From positions 47,519-111,518 of the IMG/VR virus record IMGVR_UViG_3300015177_000008: a stretch of DNA of 64,000 bases; one strand, 5' to 3'. Under the pieces are notes generated by a model that ran no database searches, was not told where the DNA came from, and saw only the letters and a program-made list of their open reading frames with translations. The first letter of the stretch is position 1, and every line of letters starts with the position of its first letter. This document shows, piece by piece, positions 6,163 to 56,980 of the stretch. A program made the translations under genes and the position numbers. The DNA is from a virus. Taxonomy: Duplodnaviria; Heunggongvirae; Uroviricota; Caudoviricetes.

Positions 6163-6732
6163 TCAATTAGAGCTTTGAAAGGCTTTGTGTGGCTGTGTTG
6201 CGAGGTTATGTCGATGGCTTAACTCACGCATCATGTCTTCAAGGCGACTCTTTGTGTCGTCGAGCTGGTCGGCCATTGCTCCCAAAAGCTGACGAACGGC
6301 CATTGGATCGTCACTGTTTAGTGACGGCATTTTATAACCCGCCTTAGAAGACATCAGATTGAATGCAGACATCAACATTGTTAGAGAAAACTTAAGTCCG
6401 GCAATTTCACGATCTTTGCTGGCAATAATCGTCTCACTTTTGTTACCGTCATGAGTTCCTTGAGTCTCGCTCACCATATCCAAAGTCGCTTGCAACTTAT
6501 CAGCTCTCTCTTTTTCAGCAAGGTAATGAACGCCGAAATGATGTGCTAAAGCTACAACCTGAGTTGGTTCTTCAAAGGTGGAATTAAAATTAAGTACTGT
6601 AAACAGTCTCTCAAATATGGAAACGTCTTCTGTTCCCCGAACAATGCCTAACATTTTGACAAGTTCATTAGCATCCATTTCTTCGAATAGGGCGTTTTGT
6701 TCATCAGCTATTGCTTTGCATTTCTCGCACAT
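6163..6732 (-). CDS. Hypothetical protein (first gene with backbone-type 5' signals)
   Basis: 189 aa ORF; start in the conserved context AAGGAAAACACATG and preceded by a class-1 palindrome. Confidence 0.5.
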   Translation of the reverse strand: MCEKCKAIADEQNALFEEMDANELVKMLGIVRGTEDVSIFERLFTVLNFNSTFEEPTQVVALAHHFGVHYLAEKERADKLQATLDMVSETQGTHDGNKSETIIASKDREIAGLKFSLTMLMSAFNLMSSKAGYKMPSLNSDDPMAVRQLLGAMADQLDDTKSRLEDMMRELSHRHNLATQPHKAFQSSN

Positions 6733-6750
6733 GTGTTTTCCTTAATGCTT

Positions 6751-6764
6751 AAACAAGTTGTTTT
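6751..6764. promoter_or_regulatory. Class-1 palindrome AAACAA-N-TTGTTT (putative operator)
   Basis: aaacaagttgtttt, about 20 nt upstream of the 6163..6732 start on the minus strand. Confidence 0.45.
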
Positions 6765-6871
6765 CTTATGTGCTTTATTGTGATGTGGCATATAAGGGGA
6801 GCAAGCTAAACGTAAAGGTGCAAACTCTCTATTTTGGTCAACGAAACACAAGGGCCATTTGGCCCTTGTCA

Positions 6872-7030
6872 TTAACACGTTGCTTTACGGACTAGCGGAT
6901 AGGCGAAGTAGATCGCCAAACCAATGAGGACGCCATCAGAAATGACAGACATCATCTTTCCCGTGAAATCAACCAACACCGCCATCACCAGAAGAGCAAT
7001 GACGGTCACAAGCCGGAATCTCTCAAGCAT
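6872..7030 (-). CDS. Small membrane protein (52 aa)
   Basis: ATG overlaps the stop of the upstream gene (TAATG); hydrophobic MLERFRLVTVIALLVMAVLV...; below the track size cut-off. Confidence 0.3.
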   Translation of the reverse strand: MLERFRLVTVIALLVMAVLVDFTGKMMSVISDGVLIGLAIYFAYPLVRKATC

Positions 7031-7455
7031 TAGAGATAAGCATCCAGTGACAACTGAAGCGCCTGGGCGATCTTTTTCAGCGCCTGCTCTTCTTGTTCAC
7101 CAATGCCGTCCTGGTCGGCAATATCAAGGCACAGACACAGAACATCGACCGCCTCTGGAGTGCCCGCAATATCAGCCAGCTCACGCATAGCCTGTGCATT
7201 AGCGGAACGAGGGGACGCTTCGTAACGAGCACGGATATTGGCGCTCATTTGGGCAATTTCACCAGCAAACGGAGAAAACGCAGGCAGAGCTGCAATTGTT
7301 TTCTCAAGAATGGCAATTTCTTTTGCGTCACATGTGCCGTCGGCATAGGAGATCATGTACGCGCCCCACACGGTGGCCTCAACCGCATCACGGTTCTCCA
7401 TTTTTTTGACTTCAATAACAGCTTTACGAGTTTTCTTTTTGAAGAAACCTAACAT
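7030..7455 (-). CDS. Hypothetical protein
   Basis: 141 aa ORF; start context GGAAAACACATG; class-1 palindrome upstream. Confidence 0.5.
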   Translation of the reverse strand: MLGFFKKKTRKAVIEVKKMENRDAVEATVWGAYMISYADGTCDAKEIAILEKTIAALPAFSPFAGEIAQMSANIRARYEASPRSANAQAMRELADIAGTPEAVDVLCLCLDIADQDGIGEQEEQALKKIAQALQLSLDAYL

Positions 7456-7478
7456 GTGTTTTCCTTTTATTATTTGTC

Positions 7479-7493
7479 AAAACAAGTTGTTTT
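7479..7493. promoter_or_regulatory. Class-1 palindrome (putative operator)
   Basis: aaaacaagttgtttt upstream of the 7030..7455 start. Confidence 0.45.
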
Positions 7494-7548
7494 CTAGTTT
7501 CATATATTGCTTGCGCAAAGATGGTCAATGCATATGCACTAACAACCG

Positions 7549-16132: not shown

Positions 16133-16138
16133 TTATTC
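16120..16138. promoter_or_regulatory. Class-2 AT-rich palindrome
   Basis: gataagtaatcacttattc, overlapping the thyA 5' end. Confidence 0.35.
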
Positions 16139-17222: not shown

Positions 17223-18365
17223 TTACAGGTCTGCAAACTGGCTTAGAGAAGCCTTATCCACGGTAGAATCGATCTGACCTACCAGATATGTGCTTTGCTC
17301 TGCCTCTTGTGGTGCAATTTGCAGTGTGTCGGTTAACAACCACTTGTTCATCCAGACCAGCGGATCTGTGGTAACTTCTGGAAATAAAGCCTTCAGGCCA
17401 AGACGATTCATAGCCAGATTGGTTCGGTATTTTACATAGGTCTTCAGAATATCCGCGTTTAAACCAATCATCGAACCGTCTTTGAAGAGATAGTCTGCCC
17501 AGTTCATTTCTTGTTCGGCGACTGATTTCATGGTGTCGTAAATGACGCTTTCTTCATCAGCAGCAATCTCTTTCCACAATAAACCTTCGCGACCGGTACG
17601 CATGAAGCGGATCATGCGTTCAGTTCCTTCGCAATGCAGAGCTTCATCACGAGCAATAAAGCGCATAATTTTGGTGTTACCCTCAAGCAACTTCCGTTCG
17701 CCAAAGGCAAACGTACATGCAAAACTTACATAGAAACGGATCGCCTCAAGCGCATTAATGGACACCAACGTGCGGAAAAGCTGACGGTGCAAAGGGTATG
17801 GCTCCCAGCCATATTCATTTACGTACAGACGTTCAAACTCTTTCTCACCTAACGACTGGCGCTCGCAGGTCATCCCATAAAGCCTGTCATATTCAGCAGA
17901 GATACTGATCGCTCGGTTGATGATTTCTTCATCCGTAACAATACCGTCAAAAACAATGCTCGGATCGTCCACCATGCCACGAATAATGTGGGTGTAGCTG
18001 CGGCTATGGATAGTCTCAGAGAAAGACCATGTTTCAACCCACGTTTCCAGTTCAGGAATAGAGATAAGCGGCAGCAGCGTTGCATTTGGGCTACGTCCCT
18101 GAACTGAGTCGAGTAACGTTTGATAACGGAGATTGCTCAGAAAAATGTGACGTTCGTGGTCCCGCAGCTTCGTGTTGAAGTCGATACGATCGCTCGAAAT
18201 ATCAACTTCTTCCGGCCGCCAGAAGAAAGACAATTGACGTTCAATCAACTTTTCAAAATCACGGTATTTTTGCTGATCGTAACGTGCCACGTTGACAGAT
18301 TGTCCGAGGAACATAGGCTCTTTGGTTGCATCATTAGCACCCAAACGGAACGTTGAATATGACAT
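17223..18365 (-). CDS. nrdB: Ribonucleotide reductase class Ia beta subunit
   Basis: ATG at 18365 in context GGAAAAACACATG; [34 protein letters not shown]... closely resembles E. coli NrdB as I recall it, including the iron-ligand regions. Confidence 0.9.
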
Positions 18366-18395
18366 GTGTTTTTCCTTTTGCTTTTTGATGTGTTT

Positions 18396-18407
18396 AAACA
18401 AGTTGTT
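18396..18407. promoter_or_regulatory. Class-1 palindrome (putative operator)
   Basis: aaacaagttgtt about 30 nt upstream of the nrdB start, followed by a second short palindrome ttgtttaaacaa. Confidence 0.45.
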
Positions 18408-18469
18408 ATCTTATTTGTTTAAACAAGGCTTACAAATCAAAGAGAAGGTGGGATACACCCCACCATATG

Positions 18470-24316: not shown

Positions 24317-25402
24317 TCACACAGCCTCCGAACTCTCCGCTTCGGTGAGGATTTCCTGACACAAAATATCCAATTTGCTCAGATCAAATCCGCCGTCAGT
24401 ATCGTGGACAATCTTGCAATAAGCAGATACCGACTCTCCCAGGCTATCGATTTTGCTGGTTTCAGTTGTGCTGGCTGTCCCTTCCATCATTGATGACTTA
24501 CGGATGAAGTTGCACACGACACCTTTTGCACCCATTGTTTTGAGGATGTTCTGGTACTTAATGCCTTCTTCATCGTTCTCAATTACGGCGCGGAAACGCA
24601 CGTAGTTGCCGCGAATTTGGTCATCAGCAACATCATCTTCCAGGTTAATGAATTTAGGCGCACTGGTTTCGTAGTGACTGAAACTGCCGTCCGGGTTTAC
24701 GATCATGTAGCCAGCCAGAGATCCAACATCTCCCCAATTTTGATGAGTCAGTGCACCGACACTGATAACTCCAGGAATGACCTCTTTGTGGTTGTGGTAA
24801 TGCCCACTAAGCACGAGACGAAAGCCGATATCCTTTAACTCCTGCGCATCGATACCGACGTCAGGCATTGTTGGAATGGCTTTGTTAATGGATGTATGGA
24901 TAACAACGTCATGGTTATCACCTTCTACGCTCTTACGTAATGCTTTCAGATCGCTGATAAGCTCCGCATGATTGTTACGCCAGCTAATCAGGTGGACAGT
25001 CACATCACCAATTTTTATTGAGTGTGGGCGCTTGCCACATACGATTACCACGCCGATAGAACTCAGCGATGCTGCTGCGTTGGCGCTATATACTGAATCG
25101 TTGGTTTCAAGATCGTGATTACCGGCCAGCATTACTACTGTCAGATCAAGCTCGTTGATAATCCACTTGTACGTTTCAGTTACGTAATGCAAAACAGAAG
25201 GGGACACAGTTCCTCGGACGTGAAATGTATCACCGGCAACCAACATGTACTTACAACCGGCCTTCTTCATGGCGATGGCTGCTTCTTTCGTTGCTTCCAA
25301 CTGTATTTCAAGTCTGGAGTTAAGCCCCTCAGCGTTCGTCGTGGAGAACGCATCCCATTTGTGGTAGTGGCAGTCAGAAATGACGCCGTATGGCAAAGTC
25401 AT
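24317..25402 (-). CDS. sbcD: SbcD/Mre11-like nuclease
   Basis: Calcineurin-like phosphoesterase motifs DCHYH, AGDTFH, GNHD. Confidence 0.8.
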   Translation of the reverse strand: MTLPYGVISDCHYHKWDAFSTTNAEGLNSRLEIQLEATKEAAIAMKKAGCKYMLVAGDTFHVRGTVSPSVLHYVTETYKWIINELDLTVVMLAGNHDLETNDSVYSANAAASLSSIGVVIVCGKRPHSIKIGDVTVHLISWRNNHAELISDLKALRKSVEGDNHDVVIHTSINKAIPTMPDVGIDAQELKDIGFRLVLSGHYHNHKEVIPGVISVGALTHQNWGDVGSLAGYMIVNPDGSFSHYETSAPKFINLEDDVADDQIRGNYVRFRAVIENDEEGIKYQNILKTMGAKGVVCNFIRKSSMMEGTASTTETSKIDSLGESVSAYCKIVHDTDGGFDLSKLDILCQEILTEAESSEAV

Positions 25403-25514
25403 GTATTTTTCCTTTGTGGTTATTTTGATACAAATTCTAAGAGCAATGAGGAGGTAAACAACTATGCATAACGGTATGTTAGGAATGAAACGAGTGCCTT
25501 AATATACAAAATTT

Positions 25515-29059: not shown

Positions 29060-29335
29060 TCACTCAAAAGTGCTGATGCTTAAAATACGCTCAAGATGTG
29101 CGGCATCTTCATCACTGATTTGTTGAGTCTCTTCTACGTACCAACAGTTGCCGTTATGCCAACAAACACCATCATCATCAACCATCACTGAATCAGCGTC
29201 ATGACCTGTATATTCAACGAGAATACGCTGGATCAGCGCGTCAGTTTCTTCGTCGTTAAGGCCATCGGCTTTGACCATAAAAACCGGAAACACGTCATAG
29301 ACAGTGCTGGTAACGATTCGAACTAAAACTCTCAT
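29060..29335 (-). CDS. Hypothetical protein
   Basis: 91 aa; start context GGAAAAACACATG. Confidence 0.4.
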   Translation of the reverse strand: MRVLVRIVTSTVYDVFPVFMVKADGLNDEETDALIQRILVEYTGHDADSVMVDDDGVCWHNGNCWYVEETQQISDEDAAHLERILSISTFE

Positions 29336-29390
29336 GTGTTTTTCCTTTTGTGGTTAGTGTTTACTTATTTTGTTAGTTATGAATAGGCGA

Positions 29391-30741: not shown

Positions 30742-30942
30742 TTATTTCCCCTTTGCTTTGATTAATGAGTTGATAAACTTACGACCAGCAATAAGACCGA
30801 TTACAGGAGCACCAAAACCAACGATAACTCCAAACATGACGGCTAAATCACTCTTGGTAGAAATCAGCGACGGAACCAGTAATCCGTAGATGAGAGCCAC
30901 TGAAAGGCCTGTGGCTACTGCCAATAGATAGATTTTGATCAT
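30742..30942 (-). CDS. Small two-TM membrane protein
   Basis: 66 aa hydrophobic ORF immediately upstream of the SPFH gene in the same operon. Confidence 0.4.
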   Translation of the reverse strand: MIKIYLLAVATGLSVALIYGLLVPSLISTKSDLAVMFGVIVGFGAPVIGLIAGRKFINSLIKAKGK

Positions 30943-30973
30943 GTGTTTTCCTATGTGGTTGTTATGTGAAAAT

Positions 30974-34647: not shown

Positions 34648-35676
34648 TTACAGAGAGTCCAGCTCTCTCAGTAGGTCATCCAGACCTTCATCTTCCGTCG
34701 CAGATGCGGTTGCTACAGATGTCGCTGCGACTGCTTCAGACTCTTTGACTGATACGGCAACGGCAGCGGAACTTGCCTCTGGTTTAAATTCAGTTTCAAC
34801 GGCACGGAGGATTTCTTCATCAACCAGACTGGTTGGTTCAGAAGCCGGTGTGTGCGCGGTTGCTACAGCCGTCGCTCCTTCTGTATGACCAGTGACAGAG
34901 CCAAATCCAGGTAGTGCCGCAGCCGATGTTTTCGCGGTTGAGGAAATTGCTGGTGCAGATGCTGCGGCAGTTGGTGCAGCGATGCCAATCAGACGACCCA
35001 TAGTGCGAACTGTCGACAGAAGACGAGTTTCATCAGCCTGATTTGCGTATGCGATCAGATCATGCTGGGTGTTCCAGAATTTATCTTCGATATCGCCTTT
35101 GTAGACTTTACGCTTAGGCGAGACGTCATATTTGGTATCGCGACCAGAGCCAGTACGTTTAATCAGGAATGCGTAGCCTTCCTCTTTGCTCAGTGGATTG
35201 CCGATATCATCAGCGATGTCTTCGGTGATTGCTTTGCAGATATCATCGAATACAGTAGACGGCAGCTCGATTAACTGGCATTTCTCAGCATCTGCGAAAT
35301 CCTCACGAGCAGAAAGAATGCCGTTGACCAGGTAGCGAGGAGTGGCACGCATTTGACCGATGCGTTCTTCCATTGCTTTGTTACCCTTGTGACGAGCGCG
35401 ACCTTCCATAACCATTTCGCATAGCTGACAAGCGCGACCGTGAGTATGTTGCTCACAAATATAAGCGTTGGTTGCTTCTTTACCTTCCTCGTTCTGATAC
35501 TTAACGTAGTGCATACCGAAAGTCTGGAAGAACTTACCGTTTGGGTCGTCTTTATTCGGGAAGATGCGGATATAGTTGACGCCGTCTTTTAAGCGAGTCA
35601 GATCAACGTTGTTGCCACGTTTGGCGGCAATGTCTTCACGAGTTTTGTTAAGCAAATCAAGTAATGTCTTAGACAT
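34648..35676 (-). CDS. Single-stranded DNA-binding protein-like (putative)
   Basis: Cys/His cluster (CEQHTHGRACQLCE), Ala/Ser/Thr-rich linker and acidic C-terminal tail DEGLDDLLRELDSL. Confidence 0.4.
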   Translation of the reverse strand: MSKTLLDLLNKTREDIAAKRGNNVDLTRLKDGVNYIRIFPNKDDPNGKFFQTFGMHYVKYQNEEGKEATNAYICEQHTHGRACQLCEMVMEGRARHKGNKAMEERIGQMRATPRYLVNGILSAREDFADAEKCQLIELPSTVFDDICKAITEDIADDIGNPLSKEEGYAFLIKRTGSGRDTKYDVSPKRKVYKGDIEDKFWNTQHDLIAYANQADETRLLSTVRTMGRLIGIAAPTAAASAPAISSTAKTSAAALPGFGSVTGHTEGATAVATAHTPASEPTSLVDEEILRAVETEFKPEASSAAVAVSVKESEAVAATSVATASATEDEGLDDLLRELDSL

Positions 35677-35759
35677 GTGTTTCTCCTTGTTGTGATTTGG
35701 CCGATGGCGCTATGCGCGTTGGGCTTTCGTTCATTCGTGGCTCTTTCGAGCTGTTAAAT

Positions 35760-41100: not shown

Positions 41101-41695
41101 TGGCGACTTTCATCGCCCGGACGTTAATCTGGTCGTAGAATGGGGTAGGGTGCGGATAAACCACACTATAGAAGTTGTCTTTTCCACCCGCTGTAATCAG
41201 TGTGCTTATGATTTTTGCAAAATCGTTGCGTTGGAACACGCTACCGATGTCGGAAGTAAGCAGGATGATGTTGCCTTTGGCATATGTAGAAACCAACTGT
41301 TCGAGCGAGAGACGCGGTACAAAGTAGAACTGTTCTCGTGTGTTGGCCGCCGTCATTAGTTCGCAGATGTCGCGATATCCTTGCTCATTTTTAATTAGAG
41401 CGGTAAACGAGTAGTTACGTCCCCGCTCTAATGATTCCATACATCTCATAGATTCTTTAGCAAGTTTAGCCCGGTGCTCGTATGTGGGATCATCAACAAT
41501 GTTTAGTTTCACACCACAAATAACCGCCATGTCGTCACCAGCGGCACGTTGTAGTGGAATAACGCTCGCAATATTCATGCTATCTGCTGAAATTACAGCG
41601 GTGTAGCCAGCTTCTCTGGCAATCTTCACCGCGTTTTCTGCTTTTAGAGCCGACTCCCCAAGTGAGAAGTCAGTTCGAACCATCAGTGCCTTCAT
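38177..41695 (-). CDS. dnaE: DNA polymerase III alpha subunit (DnaE family)
   Basis: 1172 aa; N-terminal PHP-like region and polymerase-core motif GRGSSAGSLVAWCIGIT; start context GGTAAAAACACATG. Confidence 0.85.
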   Translation of the reverse strand: MKALMVRTDFSLGESALKAENAVKIAREAGYTAVISADSMNIASVIPLQRAAGDDMAVICGVKLNIVDDPTYEHRAKLAKESMRCMESLERGRNYSFTALIKNEQGYRDICELMTAANTREQFYFVPRLSLEQLVSTYAKGNIILLTSDIGSVFQRNDFAKIISTLITAGGKDNFYSVVYPHPTPFYDQINVRAMKVASALKIEPVAFYPAYYESIDDADIKDIAHMVTNNIKIDQPHRLRIPHQRDNAVNGRRHLLEALKAFSVRMDVPVTAAMASTTQDTIIDACTWRWHELPPALPKMADDEPATLMKLAVAGLRKRLTTKEFGYTPPASENRVYVERLKYEMDTLTRLGFCGYFLMVRDLMNHSRETGIPVGPGRGSSAGSLVAWCIGITNVDPIRHGLLFERFINPERLDLPDADLDFSQARRHEVIEYLNERYGEDYVAGIPNFTYLGAASALRDTARIYGVESADMAVSKELKNAEDDSLPLEELREQLASLDKYATKYPDAFNAACKLQSLMRGFGRHAAGMIVAGVPLTERTPVERRGDARCIAFDKRYCEAMGLIKLDVLGLATLDLLDSAKRYIKENTGEDINLDAISLEDRKVLDGFAAGYTQGVFQLESGPMRKLLKDLGGGIEPMSFKTVVATTALFRPGPIQSGMLDDYVSVAKGFMTPESLHPVLDKLTAETNGVILYQEQTMNATRLLAGFTMAEADAVRSAIGKKNMEKMKSMGEKFIVQAQAGWIDVELEDGTTQRIHRAEHFKCEDGTLKTVEEALEHGAKLPINAVRVTASHPGLSEMKAKEIWTAFEKNGAYQFNKSHSVAYSLISYQSMWLKTHYPAEFFAAALTILGEDKHQGLVKDALTYGIRVLPPDVNVSSNRIEIRTLEDGSQALYAPFSAVKGCSENGCQAIMRAREKVGGKFESVAQFDEAVEKRACNSRVRESLHKVGAFASIEPGSLPATDPERLRDQAELMGNLIIDAVKASRPFEMNPKRSAEINVLMTRMAAEMGLGEELIRPTIGIKPKIMIILDNANGNDARTGYFMENGYDDFKAKLLTVGDLRMGDLYVTGVCKKVKDKEKDYTKDEIGQFTDFMREEINLVRPTYILTCGSRSTALFNNKSKPSDLIGRKEYFPELDATVFYGFNPNILYFRPEEGERLEAILADIAETINK

Positions 41696-41873
41696 GTGTT
41701 TTTACCTTTCTGGTTTTTTTGATTTTGTCATTGGGGAAGCCTACGAACTTCCCATGCATCGAAATCGCAACTTCTTTTGCTGATTGGTGACAATCGGGCT
41801 TGTCTGGACACACCAGACAAGCCTTACCAGTTTCAGAAGCAGCGATAAGAGAGCCGAAACATCCTTTACGCAC
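41670..41873 (-). CDS. Small Cys-rich protein (possible zinc ribbon)
   Basis: 67 aa with C-x-x-CPDKPDC; overlaps the dnaE start by 26 nt. Confidence 0.3.
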   Translation of the reverse strand: MRKGCFGSLIAASETGKACLVCPDKPDCHQSAKEVAISMHGKFVGFPNDKIKKTRKVKTHEGTDGSN

Positions 41874-41875
41874 GA

Positions 41876-43111
41876 TTAACCAAATATTTTTTGAACAACT
41901 TCACGAGCCGCTTGTGCAGAAGCTGAAGGGAGTTTGTTAATGAAAGAACGCTCAATACCTGTCACAAAGTCGCCTCGCATCATTCCAATCTTGGCCGACA
42001 ACAAAAGTTCACGAGGGCCAATTGGCTGACTAATAAGGTGTTCTTCGTATCCATCGCGAACGATACCGGCAAACTTAACCATCTTTTCAGCGTATTCATC
42101 CACGATGCCTGCATTTATCAACATGTTGATCTCTGCGTCTTTGCTCATGTATTTCACATTCGAAACGATGCCAAAACGCGAAAAGTTCGCGGCGTTCTGG
42201 ATGTTTGTACCCTGGTACAAGCCGGTTTCATCACCAGATCCGTTCGTGTTGCCAGTGCCAATGAAAGCAAACCGTTCATGCGGAGTAATGCGACGCCATT
42301 CTGGAGTCGCCTCTTTGATGACCAACGCCTCACCTTCCAGCACTGGCTGATACACGCCAAGAATTTGTGGAAACGCAAAGTCGTATTCATCCGCGAGGTA
42401 AACCCAGCCATGCTTCATTGCGAGCGCAAGCAAGCCAGGCTCGAAATACGTAGAGCCATCACGCGCCAGAATTTGCCCCGTAACATGTGCCTCTTCCATT
42501 GATGCTGTATGTTGGGCACGGATCAACGGACGATTGAGCAAAGCACATAGCTGTGTAGGCAATGACGATTTGCCTGTTCCTGCATGACCCCACAAATAGC
42601 CAGGTATGCCAAGTTCAAGCATCATGAAAATATCTTTGATCAGTTCGAAGTCGCCATATACGTAGCCCTTCTTCACTTCTGGAACGAACTCTGGATACGG
42701 CGTATTGACGTTGACGCTAACCATGAGCGGCGTCCCACGTTTTGTTCCGAGTTCTTCCACCGTTACGTTTAGCAGTTCGTGAGCTGCGACCAGATCTGTC
42801 TTGTACTCAACTGTGCCTGTGTAACCAGGGCTACTGGTCAAGCCAGAAGATTTGGCCATTTCGCTTTTTTGCTCGGCACGTTTAGCTTGAATTGCATCAA
42901 GTGCCTTTTTCGATAGCGTTGGCTCATCTGGAAACTGCGTTGTGTACATTTTCAGTACGGTGTCAGGATCGGCATCTTTTACTGACTCAGGAATGCCCTC
43001 GCAATTACCATTGGCTACATGGGACTTAAAATAGTGAAATGATTTGCCGCACCACTTGCAAACAAGGTAATCAGAATGATTTTTTTCATTTTGCAGTGCA
43101 GTAGTCGTCAT
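41876..43111 (-). CDS. CobS-like AAA+ ATPase (MoxR family)
   Basis: Walker A GHAGTGKSS and Walker B LADEYDFA; paired with a VWA-domain protein. Confidence 0.65.
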   Translation of the reverse strand: MTTTALQNEKNHSDYLVCKWCGKSFHYFKSHVANGNCEGIPESVKDADPDTVLKMYTTQFPDEPTLSKKALDAIQAKRAEQKSEMAKSSGLTSSPGYTGTVEYKTDLVAAHELLNVTVEELGTKRGTPLMVSVNVNTPYPEFVPEVKKGYVYGDFELIKDIFMMLELGIPGYLWGHAGTGKSSLPTQLCALLNRPLIRAQHTASMEEAHVTGQILARDGSTYFEPGLLALAMKHGWVYLADEYDFAFPQILGVYQPVLEGEALVIKEATPEWRRITPHERFAFIGTGNTNGSGDETGLYQGTNIQNAANFSRFGIVSNVKYMSKDAEINMLINAGIVDEYAEKMVKFAGIVRDGYEEHLISQPIGPRELLLSAKIGMMRGDFVTGIERSFINKLPSASAQAAREVVQKIFG

Positions 43112-43172
43112 GCGTTTTTCCTTTGTTCTCTAATGAGCGTTCAACTTCTTATATAAATATACCATTAACTAT

Positions 43173-43190
43173 CGTAAGTGCTTACTTATC
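43173..43190. promoter_or_regulatory. Class-2 AT-rich palindrome
   Basis: cgtaagtgcttacttatc upstream of the CobS-like gene. Confidence 0.35.
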
Positions 43191-45315: not shown

Positions 45316-45413
45316 GGCTAATCCTTTGTTATGAAAACAAATTATTTACTAGTGTGTTTAATGTAGCACTGCGCGAACAGGGAACTAAGCCATTCGCGCA
45401 GGGAGAAGAGGGG

Positions 45414-49448: not shown

Positions 49449-49535
49449 TGGCGGAGAGTAATGGAATCGAACCATCATCGCTTGCGCAATGGGACGGTTT
49501 TCAAGACCGCTTGAGCACCATGCTCCCTACTCTCC
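49449..49535 (-). tRNA. tRNA-Ser (anticodon UGA), type II
   Basis: Manual fold: acceptor GGAGAGT/ACTCTCC, anticodon loop CTTGAAA, long variable arm, T-loop TTCGATT, discriminator G, encoded CCA. Confidence 0.7.
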
Positions 49536-49679
49536 GGCCGTTGTGGTGGCCGGTACTGAATCTCCGGCATACGGTGCAGCCAATTAGGACTACGGACGAT
49601 CACCGCTCGCGAAAGGGAAGATTTGCGGCCGCATTTCCCTAACATCCAAGAAAGCTATCGCATCAGTCTGCGAATCCAC

Positions 49680-49759
49680 CACAACGGTAAGATCACTACC
49701 TTTCGACCAGTCATTGTGCACATGAACGACGATTAACCGTAATGATCTTATCGTTGTGT
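49680..49759. repeat. Long hairpin B (16-bp stem, 1 mismatch)
   Basis: cacaacggtaagatca ... tgatcttatcgttgtg. Confidence 0.5.
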
Positions 49760-49809
49760 TGTGAAGCCAGATGCTTATCTTCTGGTTGCTTCAAAGAGCT
49801 GCACTTCCT

Positions 49810-49897
49810 CACAACGGTAAGAGCACTGGTCTGACTCTATCGATTTACGGGCTTGTGGGTCAGTATCGCCGATTCGCCCAATGCTCTTACCTGTTGT
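49810..49897. repeat. Long hairpin C (16-bp stem, 1-nt bulge), 2 nt after tRNA-Thr
   Basis: cacaacggtaagagca ... tgctcttacctgttgtg. Confidence 0.5.
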
Positions 49898-49899
49898 GT

Positions 49900-49975
49900 T
49901 GGTGCCGGTTAACGGGATCGAACCGCTGACATCCTGCTTACAAGGCAGGCGCTCTACCAACTGAGCTAAACCGGC
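49900..49975 (-). tRNA. tRNA-Thr (anticodon UGU)
   Basis: Manual fold: acceptor GCCGGTT/AACCGGC, D-arm GCTC..GAGC, anticodon stem CCTGC/GCAGG with loop CTTGTAA, T-loop TTCGATC, encoded CCA. Confidence 0.8.
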
Positions 49976-49977
49976 AT

Positions 49978-50052
49978 TGGCGATGGTGGGTGGATTCGAA
50001 CCACCGACCAGTTGGTTAACAGCCAACTGCTCTACCGCTGAGCTACACCATC
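49978..50052 (-). tRNA. tRNA-Asn (anticodon GUU)
   Basis: Manual fold: acceptor GATGGTG/CACCATC, anticodon stem GTTGG/CCAAC with loop CTGTTAA, T-arm GGTGG TTCGAAT CCACC, encoded CCA. Confidence 0.8.
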
Positions 50053-50800: not shown

Positions 50801-50822
50801 GATAAGTAAGTAAATACTTATC
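50801..50822. promoter_or_regulatory. Class-2 AT-rich palindrome (perfect 8-bp arms)
   Basis: gataagtaagtaaatacttatc. Confidence 0.4.
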
Positions 50823-52965: not shown

Positions 52966-53444
52966 TGTTGTTTTACCTCCATATGTTGATCGATTTGCTC
53001 ATGTGTTTCTTTTGTTGTTTCTTCAAGCAACGCCGCATACACGTCAGTGATCGCTGTTTGTGATGTGGTGCTCTTCTTAACCATGCTATTAATCGTTACA
53101 CTGTCACGTTTTCGTTTTAAAGTTCTGGCTTGTTTATTCCGTTCTTCAACCTCCTTAATGAGCGCGGTCATATCTTCGAAATACAGAGATTCTCCTTTAC
53201 GAATCTCTTCAACCATCATTTTTAACGCCTTGCATTTGCCTGCTTTGATAGCGGTTGCGCACGACTGGAATGAAGTTCGAGGAAGACGGTTTTCTTTGAA
53301 GGCAAGAATGGTGTGCTGGCAAACGGAGTAGCTGCAATATGCCGACTCACCGTTTATCTTTACTTCCTCACAACGAAGTGAATAACCATTATTTCCTGAA
53401 ATAGAGGGGATTTTTGACAAATCAGCTTTCACAACTACCGCCAT
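52962..53444 (-). CDS. Hypothetical protein (Cys-rich N-terminal region)
   Basis: 160 aa ORF. Confidence 0.4.
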   Translation of the reverse strand: MAVVVKADLSKIPSISGNNGYSLRCEEVKINGESAYCSYSVCQHTILAFKENRLPRTSFQSCATAIKAGKCKALKMMVEEIRKGESLYFEDMTALIKEVEERNKQARTLKRKRDSVTINSMVKKSTTSQTAITDVYAALLEETTKETHEQIDQHMEVKQQ

Positions 53445-54282: not shown

Positions 54283-54323
54283 ACCAACTCCTAGCTAACA
54301 GATGAAAGTATTCTTACAGAAAG

Positions 54324-54343
54324 ATAAGTAGTCATCTACTTAT
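54324..54343. promoter_or_regulatory. Class-2 AT-rich palindrome
   Basis: ataagtagtcatctacttat (8-bp arms). Confidence 0.35.
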
Positions 54344-54357
54344 TTTATCGGCGTTTG

Positions 54358-55539
54358 TTACGATAGAGCCTTAATGCCTAAAACCTTGCTTTGCAACTCC
54401 AACTGTTTGGTATACGGTTTTGCCCGATAATAGGCTTTGATAATTTGTTCTGGCGTTGCATCGCCGGGGTCGAGTCCTTCCTCGCCCAAACACGCTACTT
54501 TGACATTAAGACCAATACTGGTCAGTCGCCTGGCTGCGGCCATAGTGTTTCGTATAGCTTGCTTTTCACTATCCCACATCATGATCACATTACGTAATCC
54601 ACGCGCCTTGAGCGTCAGGAACGCGCCTAACTGATCTTCTGCATCCTGAGTGGTGTTACCAGATAGATGCATCCCGAACGTTCCTATCGGCTCCACGTAA
54701 TGACGTAATGTTTCTTCATCAAAAATAGCTCGTTTAACCCCCATAACATCGAACGCCCCCTCACAGACAACTACAGTCTGTTTGCCGACCGCATTATGGC
54801 CGTTGTAGAGAAATTTACCTGAAGCTGGAAGCTGCATAGGAAAGAGGTAGCGGCGTTCTGCTGTACCGGTAATGTCTCGTCCCTGAAATGTCTTCATTAC
54901 CCCATCCAGATCGTAAACCGGTATCAGTATTCGCATATCGAATATCTGCCCTTTGACCTGGTCTGTGTACGGATCGACGTATGCGTGCTTGCCTTCGACG
55001 CAGTAACGCAGATCAAAGTATTTGGCCAGATCCGGGGAGATATGGCGCTCCACCAGATAATCAGGAAGACGACCGTCAATGGGGAGTTCGTAATGTCGAG
55101 GGAGAGCTACTGGCCCTTCGAGTTCAACCTTGCTGGCCAGCACGACCTCTTCCTTCTTCGGCGCCCATCCTTGTGAGATCAGCGCGTTCTGCACATATTC
55201 CTCGAACTGTCGTCGTGATTTACCGCTGTAGTGCTTGAGGAAGACCAGCTTATTGAACTGAATCTCTTCGGGATGATCACCAGCAAAGCATTTGCCGACG
55301 CCACTGGTCAGATTGAAATATACCTTCCAGTTGGAGCTGCCACATACCGGACACTCCTTGATATTCACTTCACGACCGCGAGCACTCACGCCTCCACGTC
55401 GATAAACGATACCTTCAGTGTCCAACCATTGTTCAAAATCTAATTCGGTAATTAGCTCTTTCAGCTCGCTCACGATAATTCCACTTTTAATAGGCAATAT
55501 TGTGACCAACCTAAATGTTGATATAATATAAAGGTTCAT
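54358..55539 (-). CDS. DnaG-like DNA primase
   Basis: ATG at 55539 in context GAAAAACACATG; zinc-binding CPVCGSS...C..GDH and TOPRIM VVVCEGAFDVMG. Track ORF extends upstream into a hairpin. Confidence 0.75.
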   Translation of the reverse strand: MNLYIISTFRLVTILPIKSGIIVSELKELITELDFEQWLDTEGIVYRRGGVSARGREVNIKECPVCGSSNWKVYFNLTSGVGKCFAGDHPEEIQFNKLVFLKHYSGKSRRQFEEYVQNALISQGWAPKKEEVVLASKVELEGPVALPRHYELPIDGRLPDYLVERHISPDLAKYFDLRYCVEGKHAYVDPYTDQVKGQIFDMRILIPVYDLDGVMKTFQGRDITGTAERRYLFPMQLPASGKFLYNGHNAVGKQTVVVCEGAFDVMGVKRAIFDEETLRHYVEPIGTFGMHLSGNTTQDAEDQLGAFLTLKARGLRNVIMMWDSEKQAIRNTMAAARRLTSIGLNVKVACLGEEGLDPGDATPEQIIKAYYRAKPYTKQLELQSKVLGIKALS

Positions 55540-55591
55540 GTGTTTTTCTTTTGTGGTTTGGCAAAAGAAAAGTTGTTTCACCAATGAATCA

Positions 55592-55622
55592 AGCGTGGAG
55601 GTGTTCTCCACGCTTATTTTTT
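55592..55622 (+). terminator. Terminator-like hairpin oriented for the plus strand
   Basis: agcgtggag gtgtt ctccacgct then TATTTTTT; lies between the helicase stop and the primase start. Confidence 0.35.
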
Positions 55623-56961
55623 AGGTAACGTCTAAGATTCGCTCAATGAAGCGCATTTGTTCGAGGTTTTGTTTAACGCGAATGCTGATCCCTCCCTGCT
55701 GGTTACGAGAACCAGCAAAGTAGAGACGAGCCTCTCCTTTCGCTTCTTCTTCTTCGGTTTTGTTGATCGTTATTACCAGGTCAGCAATACGTACTTTTTC
55801 GATGTTGTCGGCGGCGTGCATCATTGTGGCAACTTCTGACGCGCCACCTTCACGGTTTGTCTGCGATGCCGTGATCCCAGCAACGTTATGCTTGTCATAA
55901 AGAGCACGTAAATCGGTGTAGATACTACGAATGTTAGCGCGATCATCACGAAGGTCATAACTGGCACGCATCAAATCTGCGTAGTCGACAACAACCATAT
56001 CAGGCACCATGCCATTGGCTTTCATGCTGTTAAGCATACGGTCCAGATCTGCCGGTGACATACTTCCTGACGGACGCTCAACCACCCACAAACTACCAAT
56101 CCCCTTCGTGGCTCCCAACTCTGCCAACTTACGATGAACCTCATCGCGCCGTTCCACCAGCTTGGACATTTCCGTCTCCGACAATCTTGCATCAAAACGG
56201 TCGGATAAAATGGTGGTGTGAACCTCCAGCGAGAGATACAGAACATTGTAGCCAGCAAGCGTAGCGTTTATGGAAAACTCACCCATTGCGGTCGATTTAC
56301 CGGATTTAGCGAACCCCATGAAGAGCACCATTTCACGCTTCGCCCAGCCTTTTTGGTACAGCAACCTATCGAGCAGAGGGAGTCCAGTTGTAATGCTGTT
56401 TGGCACATACTCCTCTGAAGCCTCATATTCACGCGCTTTCAATCGCTCACTTGCGGAGGTGTAGTAGTCATAGATTCCGGTCGCTTCGTTCGATCCAATC
56501 TGCTGAACCTTGGCCATTATTGACATCGCCCCCTGAAAGTCGCCTTTCTCTTTCAGTTCAGCAGCCTTAATCAGAGCATCATCAAACGCTACGCTTTTTG
56601 CGAAGGTTGATACCTGGTCAATCATGTACGAGGTATCGGACAATTTTTCTGCAAGGATGCGCTTAAACGCAGCAACAACATCGGCGAATAGTTCCTCACG
56701 GATAGTCTTATCGCGTTTCGCACGCTTAAGCATATCCAGAATCGCAGATGAAGAGGGCGCGCTCTTGTACATACGGTAATAGCCCGAAACCATATTAACC
56801 AATATGGCATTGGCCGCATTGGCAAATTGACTAGGCACAACAAGATCTCCCGCACGAGTAAGAAACTCGTGATCACGACAAAAATAGGCCGTCAATCTGT
56901 TCTGAAAATCTTCATCAAACTCTTCGGACAGCCCGCGTCCTGTATGGCAAAGTTCGGTCAT
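55621..56961 (-). CDS. DnaB-family replicative helicase
   Basis: Walker A GFAKSGKST and RecA-like C-terminal domain; start context GGAAAGCACATG; class-1 palindrome upstream. Confidence 0.85.
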   Translation of the reverse strand: MTELCHTGRGLSEEFDEDFQNRLTAYFCRDHEFLTRAGDLVVPSQFANAANAILVNMVSGYYRMYKSAPSSSAILDMLKRAKRDKTIREELFADVVAAFKRILAEKLSDTSYMIDQVSTFAKSVAFDDALIKAAELKEKGDFQGAMSIMAKVQQIGSNEATGIYDYYTSASERLKAREYEASEEYVPNSITTGLPLLDRLLYQKGWAKREMVLFMGFAKSGKSTAMGEFSINATLAGYNVLYLSLEVHTTILSDRFDARLSETEMSKLVERRDEVHRKLAELGATKGIGSLWVVERPSGSMSPADLDRMLNSMKANGMVPDMVVVDYADLMRASYDLRDDRANIRSIYTDLRALYDKHNVAGITASQTNREGGASEVATMMHAADNIEKVRIADLVITINKTEEEEAKGEARLYFAGSRNQQGGISIRVKQNLEQMRFIERILDVT

Positions 56962-56980
56962 GTGCTTTCCTTTATTTTTT

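What the first reader, a model, noticed from the sequence alone, without database searches (positions are those of the whole stretch)
6730..56975. Near-invariant translation-initiation context CCACAAAGGAAAAACACATG shared by many backbone genes
At least seven genes start in the exact string GGAAAA(A)CACATG (6163..6732, 7030..7455, nrdB, 29060..29335, 30742..30942, dnaE, primase). Four more carry one- or two-base variants (sbcD, SSB-like, CobS-like, helicase), often preceded by CCACAAA. This is far more conserved than a generic Shine-Dalgarno site and could be the target of a translational repressor or a preferred ribosome-loading module. It also helps fix true start codons.
Basis: seen in the sequence. 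Interest (0 to 1): 0.5.

Follow-up and report, generated by a model that had tools for sequence, protein, structure and literature searches.

The report
Start-associated motif of SSU5-like phage-plasmids
About a dozen early (replication, recombination, nucleotide-metabolism) genes of this E. coli/Shigella SSU5-like phage-plasmid start in one conserved ribosome-loading sequence, AAGGA, an A-run, then CAC right before ATG; it is kept by selection beyond the Shine-Dalgarno site, and it is not yet known whether a regulator reads it.

Summary
Five genes, not seven, start in exact GGAAAA(A)CACATG. Six more intact genes (dnaE, primase, sbcD, SSB, cobS, helicase) and one truncated gene carry one-base variants. 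All lie on the minus strand.

CAC occupies -3..-1 at 12 of 57 annotated starts, against 1.3% expected. It is absent from translationally coupled genes, from late structural genes of the closest relative Cyrano, and from a syntenic Acinetobacter phage-plasmid.

In 240 related loci the flanks of motif genes diverge to about 50% identity between variants, while -7..-1 stays 80-95% identical. Control genes conserve only the Shine-Dalgarno (SD) bases. The GG-to-ATG distance varies from 5 to 11 nt, yet CAC stays next to ATG.

So this is a composite, lineage-specific start-associated sequence, not just an SD. My best explanation is a structure-free, C/A-rich, "ACA-motif" translational enhancer for independently initiated early cistrons. 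However, published E. coli data say C in the spacer and non-U at -1 are unfavourable, so a trans-acting reader remains a serious rival. I found no RegA or CsrA homologue and no antisense RNA.

The closest analogue is the unexplained SAS/ESAS system of Cluster K mycobacteriophages. Interest is moderate.

The parts
6730..6749 (-). Motif instance, exact: TTAAGGAAAACAC ATG. Start of a 189-aa protein of unknown function (phrog_5508).
7453..7472 (-). Motif instance, exact: AAAAGGAAAACAC ATG. Start of a TciA/TerB-like protein (141 aa).
18363..18382 (-). Motif instance, exact: AAAAGGAAAAACAC ATG. Start of nrdB.
29333..29352 (-). Motif instance, exact: CCACAAAAGGAAAAACAC ATG. Start of a 91-aa protein (phrog_2209).
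30940..30959 (-). Motif instance, exact: CCACATAGGAAAACAC ATG. Start of a 66-aa membrane protein. It lies 29 nt downstream of the -10 of a sigma70-like promoter, TTGAAA-N17-TATCAT (about 30972-31000), whose spacer holds the palindrome ATAAGTAcTTACTTAT.
41693..41712 (-). Motif variant: AGAAAGGTAAAAACAC ATG. Start of dnaE. CAC is kept in 14 of 14 sequence variants in relatives.
55537..55556 (-). Motif variant without GG: CCACAAAAGAAAAACAC ATG. Probable true start of primase, giving a 393-aa product, 22 codons upstream of the GTG annotated in Cyrano.
25400..25419 (-). Motif variant: CCACAAAGGAAAAATAC ATG. Start of sbcD. Most relatives have ...ACAC.
35674..35693 (-). Motif variant: CACAACAAGGAGAAACAC ATG. 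Start of the gp32-like SSB gene.
43109..43128 (-). Motif variant: GAACAAAGGAAAAACGC ATG. Start of the cobS-like AAA ATPase gene. Most relatives have ...ACAC.
56959..56978 (-). Motif variant: AATAAAGGAAAGCAC ATG. Start of the replicative helicase gene. CAC is kept in 20 of 20 variants.
3355..3374 (-). Motif variant: GATAAGAGAAAAACAC ATG. Heads an 18-codon remnant of an Ead-like gene. Homology to Cyrano ends about 55 nt into the ORF.
6749..6765 (-). Upstream palindrome 'pal1', GAAAACAACTTGTTTAA, which ends 16 nt before ATG 6732. This is an accompanying element, not part of the translation-initiation region (TIR) itself.
7478..7494 (-). pal1: GAAAACAACTTGTTTTG, upstream of ATG 7455.
18394..18410 (-). 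pal1: GATAACAACTTGTTTAA, upstream of the nrdB ATG 18365.
56979..56995 (-). pal1: GAAAACAATTTGTTTAA, upstream of the helicase ATG 56961.

Best explanation
The motif is a cis-acting element of the mRNA. It is a composite translation-initiation region (TIR) used by early-region genes that must recruit ribosomes on their own, because each follows an intergenic gap of 43 to 254 nt containing a promoter, terminator or hairpin.

It has three separable parts:
1. A C/A-rich tract, often ..AAC(C)ACAA.., just upstream of the SD.
2. An AAGGA Shine-Dalgarno that pairs with the extreme 3' end of 16S rRNA.
3. An A-run followed by CAC, anchored to the AUG rather than to the SD.

The region is about 57% A, 20% C, 12% G and 11% U, so it cannot fold on itself. 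It carries 2 to 5 ACA trinucleotides, one of which overlaps the A of AUG. I infer that it works like the C/A-rich 'ACA-motif' translational enhancers shown experimentally in Salmonella and E. coli (yifK, dppA, gltI): it keeps the start site single-stranded and stimulates 30S binding. At primase it can partly stand in for an SD.

Shown here: the motif exists, it is statistically non-random, it is strand- and start-specific, it is confined to the non-structural early region, it is confined to the enterobacterial SSU5 lineage, positions outside the SD are under purifying selection, and its predicted opening energy is low.

Inferred, not shown: that it enhances translation, and that no dedicated factor reads it.
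For: Position and specificity:
- All instances end in a start codon on the coding strand. The motif 13-mer (up to 1 mismatch) and AAACACATG never match the other strand; two AACACATG 8-mers there lie away from the annotated starts.
- All follow gaps of 43 to 254 nt. 0 of 17 translationally coupled genes have CAC, against 11 of 39 post-gap genes.

Conservation in 240 related loci:
- Identity between unique variants is 0.80-0.95 at -7..-1 in 11 motif genes. It is 0.50-0.56 in 17 control genes, which peak only at the SD. Flanks are about 0.5 in both sets.
- CAC is kept in 20/20 helicase, 14/14 dnaE, 19/19 membrane-protein and 17/17 hyp59 variants.
- The GG-to-ATG spacer ranges from 5 to 11 nt while CAC stays next to ATG.

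Physical properties:
- Median opening energy of -18..+10 is 5.0 kcal/mol, against 7.0 for other post-gap genes and 9.1 for coupled genes (P = 0.001 and 0.0002).
- ACA occurs 2.6 times per 26 nt against 0.42 expected (P = 2e-6), and U is depleted.

Generic function of the sequence:
- The exact 15-mer AAGGAAAAACACATG opens an ORF of at least 60 codons in 83 of 101 hits in unrelated viral contigs, so it is a broadly usable TIR.
- The primase instance has no GG, yet it opens a peptide conserved across clades.

Literature:
- ACA motifs near the SD enhance translation, with up to 90-100-fold loss when mutated. Position relative to SD and AUG is flexible, and ACAA repeats can drive SD-independent initiation (PMC3879156).
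- Oligo-A at -6..-3 favours expression in E. coli (PMC7264876).
Against: - Generic efficiency rules do not predict the most conserved bases. In E. coli reporter libraries cytidines in the spacer are unfavourable (PMC7264876). U at -1 is the best base because it pairs with A37 of tRNA-fMet (PMC10018350). Here -1 is C in 92% and -3 is C in 86% of family-weighted variants.
- Late structural genes of the same genome, which need high expression, use the same AAGGA but with U-rich spacers, and never CAC.
- A syntenic Acinetobacter phage-plasmid (0 of 32 starts) and two distant relatives (0 of 33) lack the motif.
- Membership differs between clades. In some relatives ruvC has it and cobT mostly does, and a 358-codon ORF in the exonuclease position does too (homology not checked); none of these has it in the window. 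That pattern also fits a regulon.
- The low opening energy is partly circular, because A/C-rich sequence is unstructured by composition.
- The published ACA enhancers lie upstream of the SD. An ACA overlapping the AUG has not been tested.
Confidence: 0.5

Rival explanations
1. The motif is the operator of a post-transcriptional regulon. A trans-acting factor recognises (A)nCAC-AUG, with or without the upstream ACAAAGGA, and represses or activates translation of a set of early genes together. The factor could be a phage-encoded RNA-binding protein analogous to T4 RegA, or a host factor such as CsrA (SELEX consensus RUACARGGAUGU, which resembles ACA(A)AGGA), Hfq (the AGG-AAA-AAC ARN repeats), or the G/U-rich R1 region of the small RNA GcvB, which targets C/A-rich enhancers.
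For: - The conserved C at -1 and -3 runs against published E. coli efficiency rules. This suggests sequence-specific reading.
- The motif is class-specific: early genes only, 0 of 16 late genes.
- It is lineage-specific.
- Which orthologues carry it changes between clades, as expected for regulon turnover.
- Predicted net hybridisation to GcvB R1 is stronger for motif TIRs: median -10.6 against -5.7 kcal/mol, P = 7e-4, with the membrane-protein, SSB, 29335 and nrdB sites among the top five.
- ACAAGGA or ACAAAGGA recurs.
- The closest phage analogue, SAS of Cluster K mycobacteriophages, is suspected to be a binding site for an unknown factor (PMC3203893).
Against: - None of the 20 unannotated window proteins scanned matches RegA (PF01818) or CsrA (PF02599) in Pfam at E <= 0.01. 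PHROGs gives only 'unknown function' or membrane proteins.
- No sequence complementary to the motif exists in the window or in Cyrano other than the antisense of the sites themselves.
- The contiguous GcvB seed is only 7 nt, no longer than for other genes.
- The sites are single and unstructured, whereas high-affinity CsrA sites are usually paired GGA motifs in hairpin loops (my own knowledge).
- Nothing downstream of the AUG is conserved.
- The gene set is functionally incoherent: nrdB but not nrdA, sbcD but not sbcC.
Confidence: 0.3
2. The motif is passive. It is a shared-ancestry or recombination 'linker' at gene boundaries, copied along with promoter/TIR cassettes during modular exchange. 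It persists by hitch-hiking or concerted evolution rather than by selection on translation.
For: - The genes involved are unrelated, and several also share upstream cassettes: pal1 at 6749, 7478, 18394 and 56979, and AACCACAAA at four sites.
- The genome is mosaic. For example, homology to Cyrano ends 55 nt after the motif at 3357, and the membrane protein at 30942 is only 73% identical while its neighbours are about 99%.
- The phage-plasmid encodes a large recombination apparatus.
Against: - Neutral sequence would decay like its flanks. Instead -7..-1 stays 80-95% identical while -13..-40 falls to about 50%, across clades whose upstream regions can no longer be aligned.
- CAC is retained through indels in the A-run and through complete replacement of the SD-proximal sequence, for example GGATAACAAACAC against GGAAAGCAC at helicase.
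- 13 to 20 nt of identity is shorter than the homology RecA-type recombination normally needs (my own knowledge).
- I did not test whether mosaic breakpoints map preferentially at the motif.
Confidence: 0.1
3. The motif is only an SD plus base composition and second-codon bias.
For: - The genome-wide SD flavour is AAGGA preceded by A/C, and late genes use it too.
- A-rich spacers are common in E. coli and its phages.
Against: - CAC at -3..-1 occurs at 21% of annotated starts against 1.3% expected from composition (P = 1e-11).
- With annotation-free start calling it is 17% in the window against 2.6% at SD-preceded ORF starts in 99 unrelated viral contigs (Fisher P = 5e-5).
- In motif genes the spacer is more conserved than the SD.
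- No codon is conserved downstream of the ATG.
Confidence: 0.05
4. The ACA that overlaps the start codon (A-C-A-UG) is a MazF-type cleavage site. Toxin cleavage would convert these mRNAs into leaderless transcripts, or would destroy them.
For: - The most conserved bases are A(-2) and C(-1), which with the A of AUG form ACA.
- ACA is the MazF recognition site; PMC3879156 appears to note this, but the passage retrieved was cut off, so this rests on my own knowledge.
- The element carries several toxin-antitoxin modules, including the mRNA interferase HicA.
Against: - There is no direct evidence.
- ACA is neither depleted nor enriched genome-wide: 0.0176 per position, equal to the compositional expectation.
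- The leaderless-mRNA model for MazF is itself disputed (my own knowledge).
- It does not explain the A-run or the C at -3.
Confidence: 0.03

Closest known systems
[quoted passage not shown] 2011, PMC3203893; Adephagia study 2024, PMC11373665)
   Same: - A short asymmetric motif sits immediately upstream of the start codons of roughly 10 to 19 unrelated genes per genome.
- It occurs in one orientation only, and mostly with ATG.
- It is confined to the non-structural, early half of the genome.
- It contains the SD plus conserved positions that cannot pair with 16S rRNA.
- It is conserved across subclusters, with gene membership that varies.
- About half the sites have an inverted repeat or promoter element just upstream. 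Here these are pal1 AAACAAnTTGTTT, and sigma70-like promoters carrying the palindrome ATAAGTAnnTACTTAT.
   Different: - The sequence is unrelated: GGGATAGGAGCCC there, AAGGAAAA(A)CAC here.
- The hosts are unrelated: Actinobacteria against Enterobacteriaceae.
- SAS lies 3 to 9 bp from the start codon. Here the conserved CAC abuts the ATG and the SD-to-ATG distance floats.
- The function of SAS is still unknown, so the resemblance is one of pattern, not of established mechanism.
C/A-rich 'ACA motif' translational enhancers of enterobacterial mRNAs (gltI, dppA, oppA, yifK), which are targets of the small RNA GcvB (Yang, Figueroa-Bossi and Bossi 2014, PMC3879156, which cites Sharma et al. 2007)
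   Same: - Same host family.
- ACA trinucleotides are clustered around the SD in an unstructured C/A-rich leader.
- Position relative to the SD is flexible.
- ACAA repeats are reported to support SD-independent initiation, which fits the primase site that has no GG.
   Different: - The characterised enhancers lie upstream of the SD and have no fixed register with the AUG.
- They occur in host amino-acid transport genes, not in a phage gene set.
- Enhancer activity and GcvB control are not tested here. The seed complementarity to GcvB R1 is only 7 to 10 nt.
Translational operators of bacteriophage T4 RegA (my own knowledge)
   Same: Many early mRNAs, several for replication and recombination proteins, share an A-rich sequence overlapping the AUG that one protein could read. 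This element also has T4-like UvsY, gp32-like SSB, UvsW and Pnk genes.
   Different: - No RegA homologue was detected in the window.
- T4 RegA sites are AU-rich and poorly conserved, and they extend past the AUG.
- Here the motif is A/C-rich, well conserved, and ends at the AUG.
CsrA/RsmA binding sites (SELEX consensus RUACARGGAUGU; cited in PMC3879156 and from my own knowledge)
   Same: ACA followed by GGA overlaps the SD. ACAAGGA or ACAAAGGA is present at SSB, cobS, sbcD, cobT and 29335.
   Different: - There is a single site per leader.
- The site is not presented in a hairpin loop.
- The conserved (A)nCAC-AUG part is not in the CsrA consensus.

Membership tests
Cluster K mycobacteriophage SAS | Matches the 13-bp consensus GGGATAGGAGCCC with up to 2 deviations | tested here: not met
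   The motif here is AAGGAAAA(A)CAC, with no sequence resemblance. It is therefore not a member, only an analogue.
Cluster K mycobacteriophage SAS | Immediately upstream of start codons, in one orientation, mostly with ATG | tested here: met
   All 12 instances end in ATG on the coding strand. The motif 13-mer (up to 1 mismatch) and AAACACATG never match the other strand.
Cluster K mycobacteriophage SAS | Restricted to the non-structural part of the genome | tested here: met
   In the complete Cyrano genome, ACACATG at annotated or likely gene starts occurs only between 33 and 86 kb (one further copy heads a 9-codon ORF inside a gene). CAC is found at 0 of 16 late-gene starts.
Cluster K mycobacteriophage SAS | Conserved positions beyond those able to pair with 16S rRNA | tested here: met
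   Positions -7..-1 are 0.80-0.95 identical between variants, against 0.50-0.56 in control genes.
Cluster K mycobacteriophage SAS | A subset is accompanied by an upstream inverted repeat or promoter (ESAS) | tested here: met
   pal1 lies 16 to 35 nt upstream of 7 starts, 4 of which carry the motif. The membrane-protein gene has a sigma70-like promoter with a palindrome in its spacer.
ACA-motif / C/A-rich translational enhancer | ACA trinucleotides clustered in an unstructured leader next to the SD | tested here: met
   2.6 ACA per 26 nt against 0.42 expected. Opening energy is low.
ACA-motif / C/A-rich translational enhancer | Mutating ACA lowers translation | not testable with these tools
   Needs reporter fusions or toeprinting.
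ACA-motif / C/A-rich translational enhancer | Base-pairing with the G/U-rich R1 region of GcvB | tested here: inconclusive
   Cofold net energy is more favourable for motif TIRs (P = 7e-4), but the contiguous seed is only 7 to 10 nt and no positive controls were run.
T4 RegA-type translational regulon | A RegA-family protein (Pfam PF01818) encoded by the element | tested here: not met
   Among 20 unannotated window proteins, Pfam matched only two, to DUF7238 and TerB. Proteins encoded outside the window were not scanned.
T4 RegA-type translational regulon | A shared operator overlapping the AUG of several early mRNAs | tested here: met
   12 sites. This shows the pattern only; repression was not tested.
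CsrA binding site | GGA in a hairpin loop, usually two or more sites per target | tested here: not met
   There is a single GGA per leader and the leaders are predicted to be unstructured. Among the 20 unannotated window proteins scanned, none matched the CsrA family PF02599.
Plain Shine-Dalgarno RBS | Conservation limited to bases complementary to the 16S 3' end | tested here: not met
   In motif genes the spacer is more conserved than the SD, and the primase site has no GG at all.

The most novel reading that the evidence does not exclude
The (A)nCAC-AUG module is the operator of a post-transcriptional regulon specific to this lineage. An unidentified phage-encoded or enterobacterial factor would read it to switch a set of early replication and recombination genes on or off during the plasmid-to-lytic transition. 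That would make it the E. coli counterpart of the still-unexplained SAS/ESAS system of mycobacteriophages.
Probability: 0.25. Interest if true: 0.75.

Novelty: new variant of a known kind. Interest (0 to 1): 0.5.

Why it matters
SSU5-like phage-plasmids are very common in Klebsiella, Escherichia, Enterobacter, Yersinia (pMT1-like) and Salmonella. About 800 PLSDB plasmids encode a DnaE at least 80% identical to this one. Their gene regulation is almost unstudied.

A conserved start-codon context that runs against the published E. coli rules (C at -1 and -3) points to one of two things. Either there is an unrecognised determinant of initiation, such as ACA overlapping the AUG, or there is an unknown regulator of phage early genes.

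The host is E. coli, so the question can be answered with simple reporter fusions. The answer could also shed light on the mycobacteriophage SAS motifs, unexplained since 2011.

In practice the motif improves start-codon annotation. The primase here starts 22 codons upstream of the start annotated in Cyrano.

Tried and rejected
- RNA.duplexfold of each TIR against GcvB gave long artefactual interior loops and no separation of gene classes. I replaced it with cofold net energies and a longest-seed count.
It therefore cannot give a database-wide enrichment. I used it only to show that the 15-mer serves as a TIR in unrelated phages, and as a background sample of gene starts.
- I searched the window and Cyrano for a phage-encoded antisense or small RNA complementary to the motif, allowing G-U pairs. 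Only the antisense of the sites themselves turned up.
- Pfam and PHROGs scans of 20 plus 20 unannotated proteins found no RegA, CsrA or other RNA-binding regulator.
- pal1 as an RNA hairpin: rejected by inspection. The stem is 4 to 6 mostly A-U pairs with a 1 to 5 nt loop. A DNA-level operator is more likely.
- pal1 as a promoter for the gene just downstream: rejected, because pal1-to-ATG distances are only 11 to 40 nt.
- Complementarity of the spacer to the 16S 3' tail: none by inspection.
- Simple sigma70 hexamer searches upstream of motif genes gave convincing promoters only at the membrane-protein gene (30942), SSB and nrdB. The distance from the -10 to the ATG is 29 to about 100 nt, so the motif is positioned relative to the AUG, not to the transcription start.
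- Literature searches for a description of this motif in SSU5-like or Cyrano elements found none.

Full report
**Context**

The window is part of an SSU5-like phage-plasmid.
- Its dnaE is 93-96% identical in DNA to Escherichia phages Cyrano, PhiR41_1 and CMS-2020a, and 84% to Salmonella phage SSU5.
- The N-terminal 400 residues of DnaE are 100% identical to a 109-kb Shigella sonnei plasmid.
- The window's minus strand is collinear with the plus strand of Cyrano (OV696614.1). I used Cyrano's curated annotation, mapped by tblastn, to place 56 minus-strand gene starts.
- The region holds lysis genes, partition and toxin-antitoxin genes, and a long leftward block of replication, recombination and nucleotide-metabolism genes.

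**Checking the observation**

Exact GGAAAA(A)CACATG occurs five times, at ATG 6732, 7455, 18365 (nrdB), 29335 and 30942.

The remaining sites are one-base variants:
- dnaE (41695): GGTAAAAACACATG.
- 'Primase': AAGAAAAACACATG, at ATG 55539.

CCACA(A/T)A precedes four of the twelve sites.

The pattern is far from chance:
- The 13-mer with up to one mismatch gives 8 hits against 0.21 expected, all on one strand.
- AAACACATG occurs 10 times on the coding strand against 0.54 expected, and never on the other strand.
- CAC fills -3..-1 at 12 of 57 annotated starts against 1.3% expected (binomial P = 1e-11).
- With an annotation-free rule (first ATG with an SD-like tetramer at -16..-5 opening at least 80 codons), CAC is found at 9 of 53 starts in the window. 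It is found at 16 of 609 in 99 unrelated viral contigs (Fisher P = 5e-5).

**Which genes carry it**

- Every motif gene follows an intergenic gap of 43 to 254 nt. None of the 17 translationally coupled genes (gap under 30 nt) has CAC; they use GGAG or GAGG.
- In the complete Cyrano genome, ACACATG at annotated or likely gene starts is confined to 33-86 kb, the early non-structural region; one further copy there heads a 9-codon ORF inside a gene.
- The late structural genes use the same SD flavour, A(A/C)AAGGA, but with U-rich spacers such as AAAGGAATTTTTATG and ACAAGGATTTTTTGAACATG. CAC occurs at 0 of 16 of their starts, and at 0 of 19 in the right arm.
- No motif gene is among the genes the LF82 study reports as expressed in the lysogen (PMC9928086).
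- The set is not functionally clean. nrdB, sbcD, helicase, primase, dnaE, SSB and cobS have the motif. nrdA, sbcC, recA, the exonuclease gene, ligase and uvsY do not.

**Evolutionary test**

I collected 240 related loci from IMG/VR using DnaE, NrdB and helicase as probes. I then extracted the upstream region of each orthologue.

- Upstream regions of different clades often cannot be aligned, yet the end of the leader is retained. Examples are nrdB TTCAAAGGGAAACAC / AAAAAGGAAAAACAC / TAACAAAGGAAAACAC, helicase AAAGGAAAGCAC / AAAGGATAACAAACAC, and hyp59 ACAAGGAGAAGACAC / ATAAGGGTATAAACAC.
- Across 11 motif genes, the probability that two distinct variants share a base is 0.80-0.95 at -7..-1 and 0.68-0.73 at the SD. 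Further upstream it mostly lies near 0.5-0.6.
- In 17 control genes that also follow gaps, only the SD rises (0.66-0.75), and -6..-1 stays at 0.50-0.56.
- Family-weighted base frequencies are A 0.96, 0.90 and 0.82 at -6, -5 and -4; C 0.86 at -3; A 0.92 at -2; C 0.92 at -1.
- The distance from GG to ATG ranges from 5 to 11 nt while CAC remains adjacent to the ATG. All primase variants lack GG altogether.

So the module has two independently constrained parts: an SD of floating position, and (A)nCAC anchored to the start codon.

**Lineage specificity**

- The motif is present at 18-22% of SD-preceded starts in most sampled enterobacterial clades and at 7% in one.
- Membership shifts between clades. 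In the clades about 79% identical in DnaE or NrdB, ruvC carries the motif and most cobT variants do, and a 358-codon ORF in the exonuclease position does too (homology not checked). None of these has it in the window.
- It is absent from two more distant relatives (NrdB 63-65% identical): 0 of 33 starts.
- It is absent from an Acinetobacter baumannii phage-plasmid with similar gene content and order (ligase ... CobT-like/AAA ATPase - dnaE ... exonuclease - recombinase ... SbcD/SbcC-like): 0 of 32 annotated starts.

The motif therefore arose or is maintained within the enterobacterial SSU5 lineage. It is not tied to the genes themselves.

**Start-codon assignment**

The motif ATG at 55539 lies 66 nt upstream of, and in frame with, the GTG annotated as the primase start in Cyrano.
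- In two clades it opens a conserved peptide, MSLY(V/G)I...RL..ILP.K, fused in frame to primase (66 or 69 nt upstream).
- In a third clade the same peptide is a separate 22-codon ORF that ends at TGAcaATG, just before the primase ATG.

This is good evidence that the motif ATG is translated, and that the window's primase starts at 55539 (393 aa).

**Physical properties**

- The 25 nt before the ATG of motif genes average 14.2 A, 4.9 C, 3.1 G and 2.8 T.
- They contain 2.6 ACA against 0.42 expected (P = 2e-6).
- The energy needed to open -18..+10 within a -60..+40 context is lower for motif genes: median 5.0 kcal/mol, against 7.0 for other post-gap genes and 9.1 for coupled genes (P = 0.001 and 0.0002).
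- The exact 15-mer AAGGAAAAACACATG opens an ORF of at least 60 codons in 83 of 101 occurrences in unrelated viral contigs, so it is a generally usable initiation site.

**Mechanism**

The best-supported reading is a cis-acting, structure-free, C/A-rich initiation module of the 'ACA-motif enhancer' type.
- In Salmonella, mutating ACA triplets next to the SD of yifK and dppA lowers expression by up to 90% and more than 100-fold respectively.
- The effect does not depend on exact position.
- ACAA repeats are reported to support SD-independent initiation (PMC3879156).
- Oligo-A at -6..-3 also favours expression (PMC7264876).

There is an important caveat.
- The same literature finds cytidines in the spacer unfavourable.
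- U is the best base at -1, through pairing with A37 of the initiator tRNA (PMC10018350).
- The near-invariant C at -1 and -3 is therefore not what simple selection for efficiency predicts.

Two explanations remain. Either ACA overlapping the AUG (A-C-A-UG) is itself an enhancer element, or something reads the sequence specifically.

The motif's restriction to early genes and to one lineage, together with the turnover of its gene set, fits a regulon equally well. I therefore keep a trans-acting regulator as a serious rival, at about 0.3.

**Search for a reader**

- None of the 20 unannotated window proteins matches RegA or CsrA in Pfam. Pfam matched only DUF7238 and TerB.
- PHROGs assigns none of them a known regulatory function.
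- No sequence complementary to the motif is encoded in the window or in Cyrano, apart from the antisense strand of the sites themselves.
- For the host small RNA GcvB (sequence taken from MG1655), the G/U-rich R1 region is predicted to hybridise more favourably to motif TIRs: median -10.6 against -5.7 kcal/mol, P = 7e-4. The contiguous seed is only 7 to 10 nt, and the result follows almost automatically from C/A richness.
- ACA(A)AGGA resembles the CsrA SELEX consensus, but the sites are single and unstructured.

None of this identifies a reader, and none of it excludes one.

**Comparison with known systems**

The closest described phenomenon is the start-associated sequences of Cluster K mycobacteriophages. 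There, a 13-bp asymmetric motif containing the SD plus non-pairing conserved bases sits 3-9 bp before the start codons of 13-19 unrelated genes.
- It occurs in one orientation only.
- It is confined to the non-structural arm.
- About half the sites have an upstream inverted repeat (ESAS), now interpreted as a promoter with an operator-like repeat.
- Its function is still unknown (PMC3203893, PMC11373665, PMC12699233).

The element here reproduces each of those features with an unrelated sequence.
- It includes upstream palindromes. pal1 (AAACAAnTTGTTT) occurs at 7 sites in the window, each 16 to 35 nt before a start, and 4 of them precede motif genes.
- The membrane-protein gene has a sigma70-like promoter, TTGAAA-N17-TATCAT, with the palindrome ATAAGTAcTTACTTAT in its spacer.

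It fails the sequence definition of SAS, so it is an analogue and not a member. I found no description of this motif in the literature on SSU5, Cyrano or phage-plasmids.

**Verdict**

- This is a real, statistically robust and evolutionarily constrained start-associated sequence of the enterobacterial SSU5 phage-plasmid lineage.
Its core intuition, 'more than an SD', is correct.
- 'Ribosome-loading module' is the better supported of its two interpretations. 'Repressor target' remains open.
- Novelty: a new variant of a known kind (SAS-like motif, ACA-type enhancer).
- Interest is moderate. The motif contradicts the generic E. coli context rules, and it can be tested directly in E. coli.

Noticed in passing
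window 6749-6765, 7478-7494, 18394-18410, 29831-29847, 45333-45349, 56979-56995, 59909-59925 (minus-strand orientation): Palindrome 'pal1', (T)AAGAAAACAAnTTGTTT(A/T)A. There are 14 pattern hits over both strands (up to 3 mismatches) against 1.6 expected; they collapse to 7 sites plus one probable chance hit. Each site lies 16 to 35 nt upstream of a gene start: hyp87, tciA, nrdB, hyp58, cobT, helicase and parA. Cyrano has 9 perfect copies, including one before terS. It is probably a DNA operator for a dimeric regulator, and it is too weak to form an RNA hairpin.
   Followed up: partly
window, about 20 sites, e.g. 30975-30990, 16121-16136, 35765-35780, 43174-43189, 50806-50821, 20835-20850: Second palindrome family, ATAAGTAnnTACTTAT / GATAGGTAAGT..CTTATC: 27 hits against 2.35 expected. 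At the gene starting at 30942 and at nrdA it lies in or overlaps the spacer of a sigma70-like promoter. In Cyrano it also precedes late genes. This resembles the scattered operators of a P1-type master repressor.
   Followed up: partly
window 55473-55539 (-): The primase gene has a conserved 22-codon N-terminal extension, MNLYIISTFRLVTILPIKSGII. In one clade of relatives it is a separate upstream ORF ending TGAcaATG just before the primase ATG. The Cyrano annotation starts at the downstream GTG.
   Followed up: yes
window 37480-37898 (+): Rfam cspA thermoregulator (185.7 bits), followed by a 70-aa CspA-family cold-shock protein ([20 protein letters not shown]...). This is a plus-strand accessory gene between hicAB and dnaE, and Cyrano's annotation lists no gene in the corresponding interval.
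   Followed up: partly
window 27716-28254: Eleven iterons, (C/G/A/T)(G/A)TATGCTGTCAGCGGT, in two clusters just downstream of the plus-strand repA-like ORF (26503-27717). That ORF is only 52% identical to Cyrano RepA, so the replicon has been swapped.
   Followed up: partly
window 35694-35740 (-), upstream of SSB: The SSB leader contains a small hairpin, GCGC-AUA-GCGC. In a divergent clade it reads GUGC-AAC-GCAC, which is a compensatory C-G to U-A change. It is followed by an unstructured CA-rich tract up to the AUG. The layout recalls T4 gene 32 autoregulation.
   Followed up: no
window 41730-41760 (-), upstream of dnaE: A conserved hairpin, GGGAAGUUCGUAGGCUUCCC, with no U-run lies about 35 nt before the dnaE SD. 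It is retained in all relatives, with changes in or next to the loop.
   Followed up: no
window 3301-3357 (-): The Ead-like gene is truncated to 18 codons. Identity to Cyrano ends abruptly about 55 nt after the ATG, which marks a mosaic or deletion breakpoint.
   Followed up: partly
window 52973-53002 (-): AAAAGAAACACATG inside the 3' end of the gene before ligase opens a 9-codon ORF (MSKSINIWR). Its stop overlaps the ligase SD (GGAGGTAA). It may be a coupling device or chance.
   Followed up: no
window 36198-36225 (-) and relatives: uvsY probably starts at GTG 36225, not ATG 36198. In many relatives an ATG follows the palindrome/-10-like element by only 3 to 4 nt with no SD, which suggests a leaderless or very short-leader mRNA.
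   Followed up: no
window 29816 (-): The DUF7238 gene starts at ATG 29816 (AAGAAAAC ATG). The Cyrano record annotates a non-canonical ATT start 9 nt downstream.
   Followed up: partly
window 61144 (-): At the position of the Rz1 GTG start the window reads GTA, as do 5 of 22 variants in relatives. The spanin start may lie elsewhere, or the gene may be impaired.
   Followed up: no
window 49449-50052 (-): Three tRNA genes: Ser-tga, Thr-tgt and Asn-gtt.
   Followed up: no
L365 (Acinetobacter baumannii plasmid NZ_CP027122.1, 3525-34724): A ~114-kb Acinetobacter plasmid shares much of the replication/recombination gene order (ligase ... CobT-like/AAA ATPase - dnaE ... exonuclease - recombinase ... 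SbcD/SbcC-like) at about 30% DnaE identity. It has none of the CAC-ATG contexts.
   Followed up: partly
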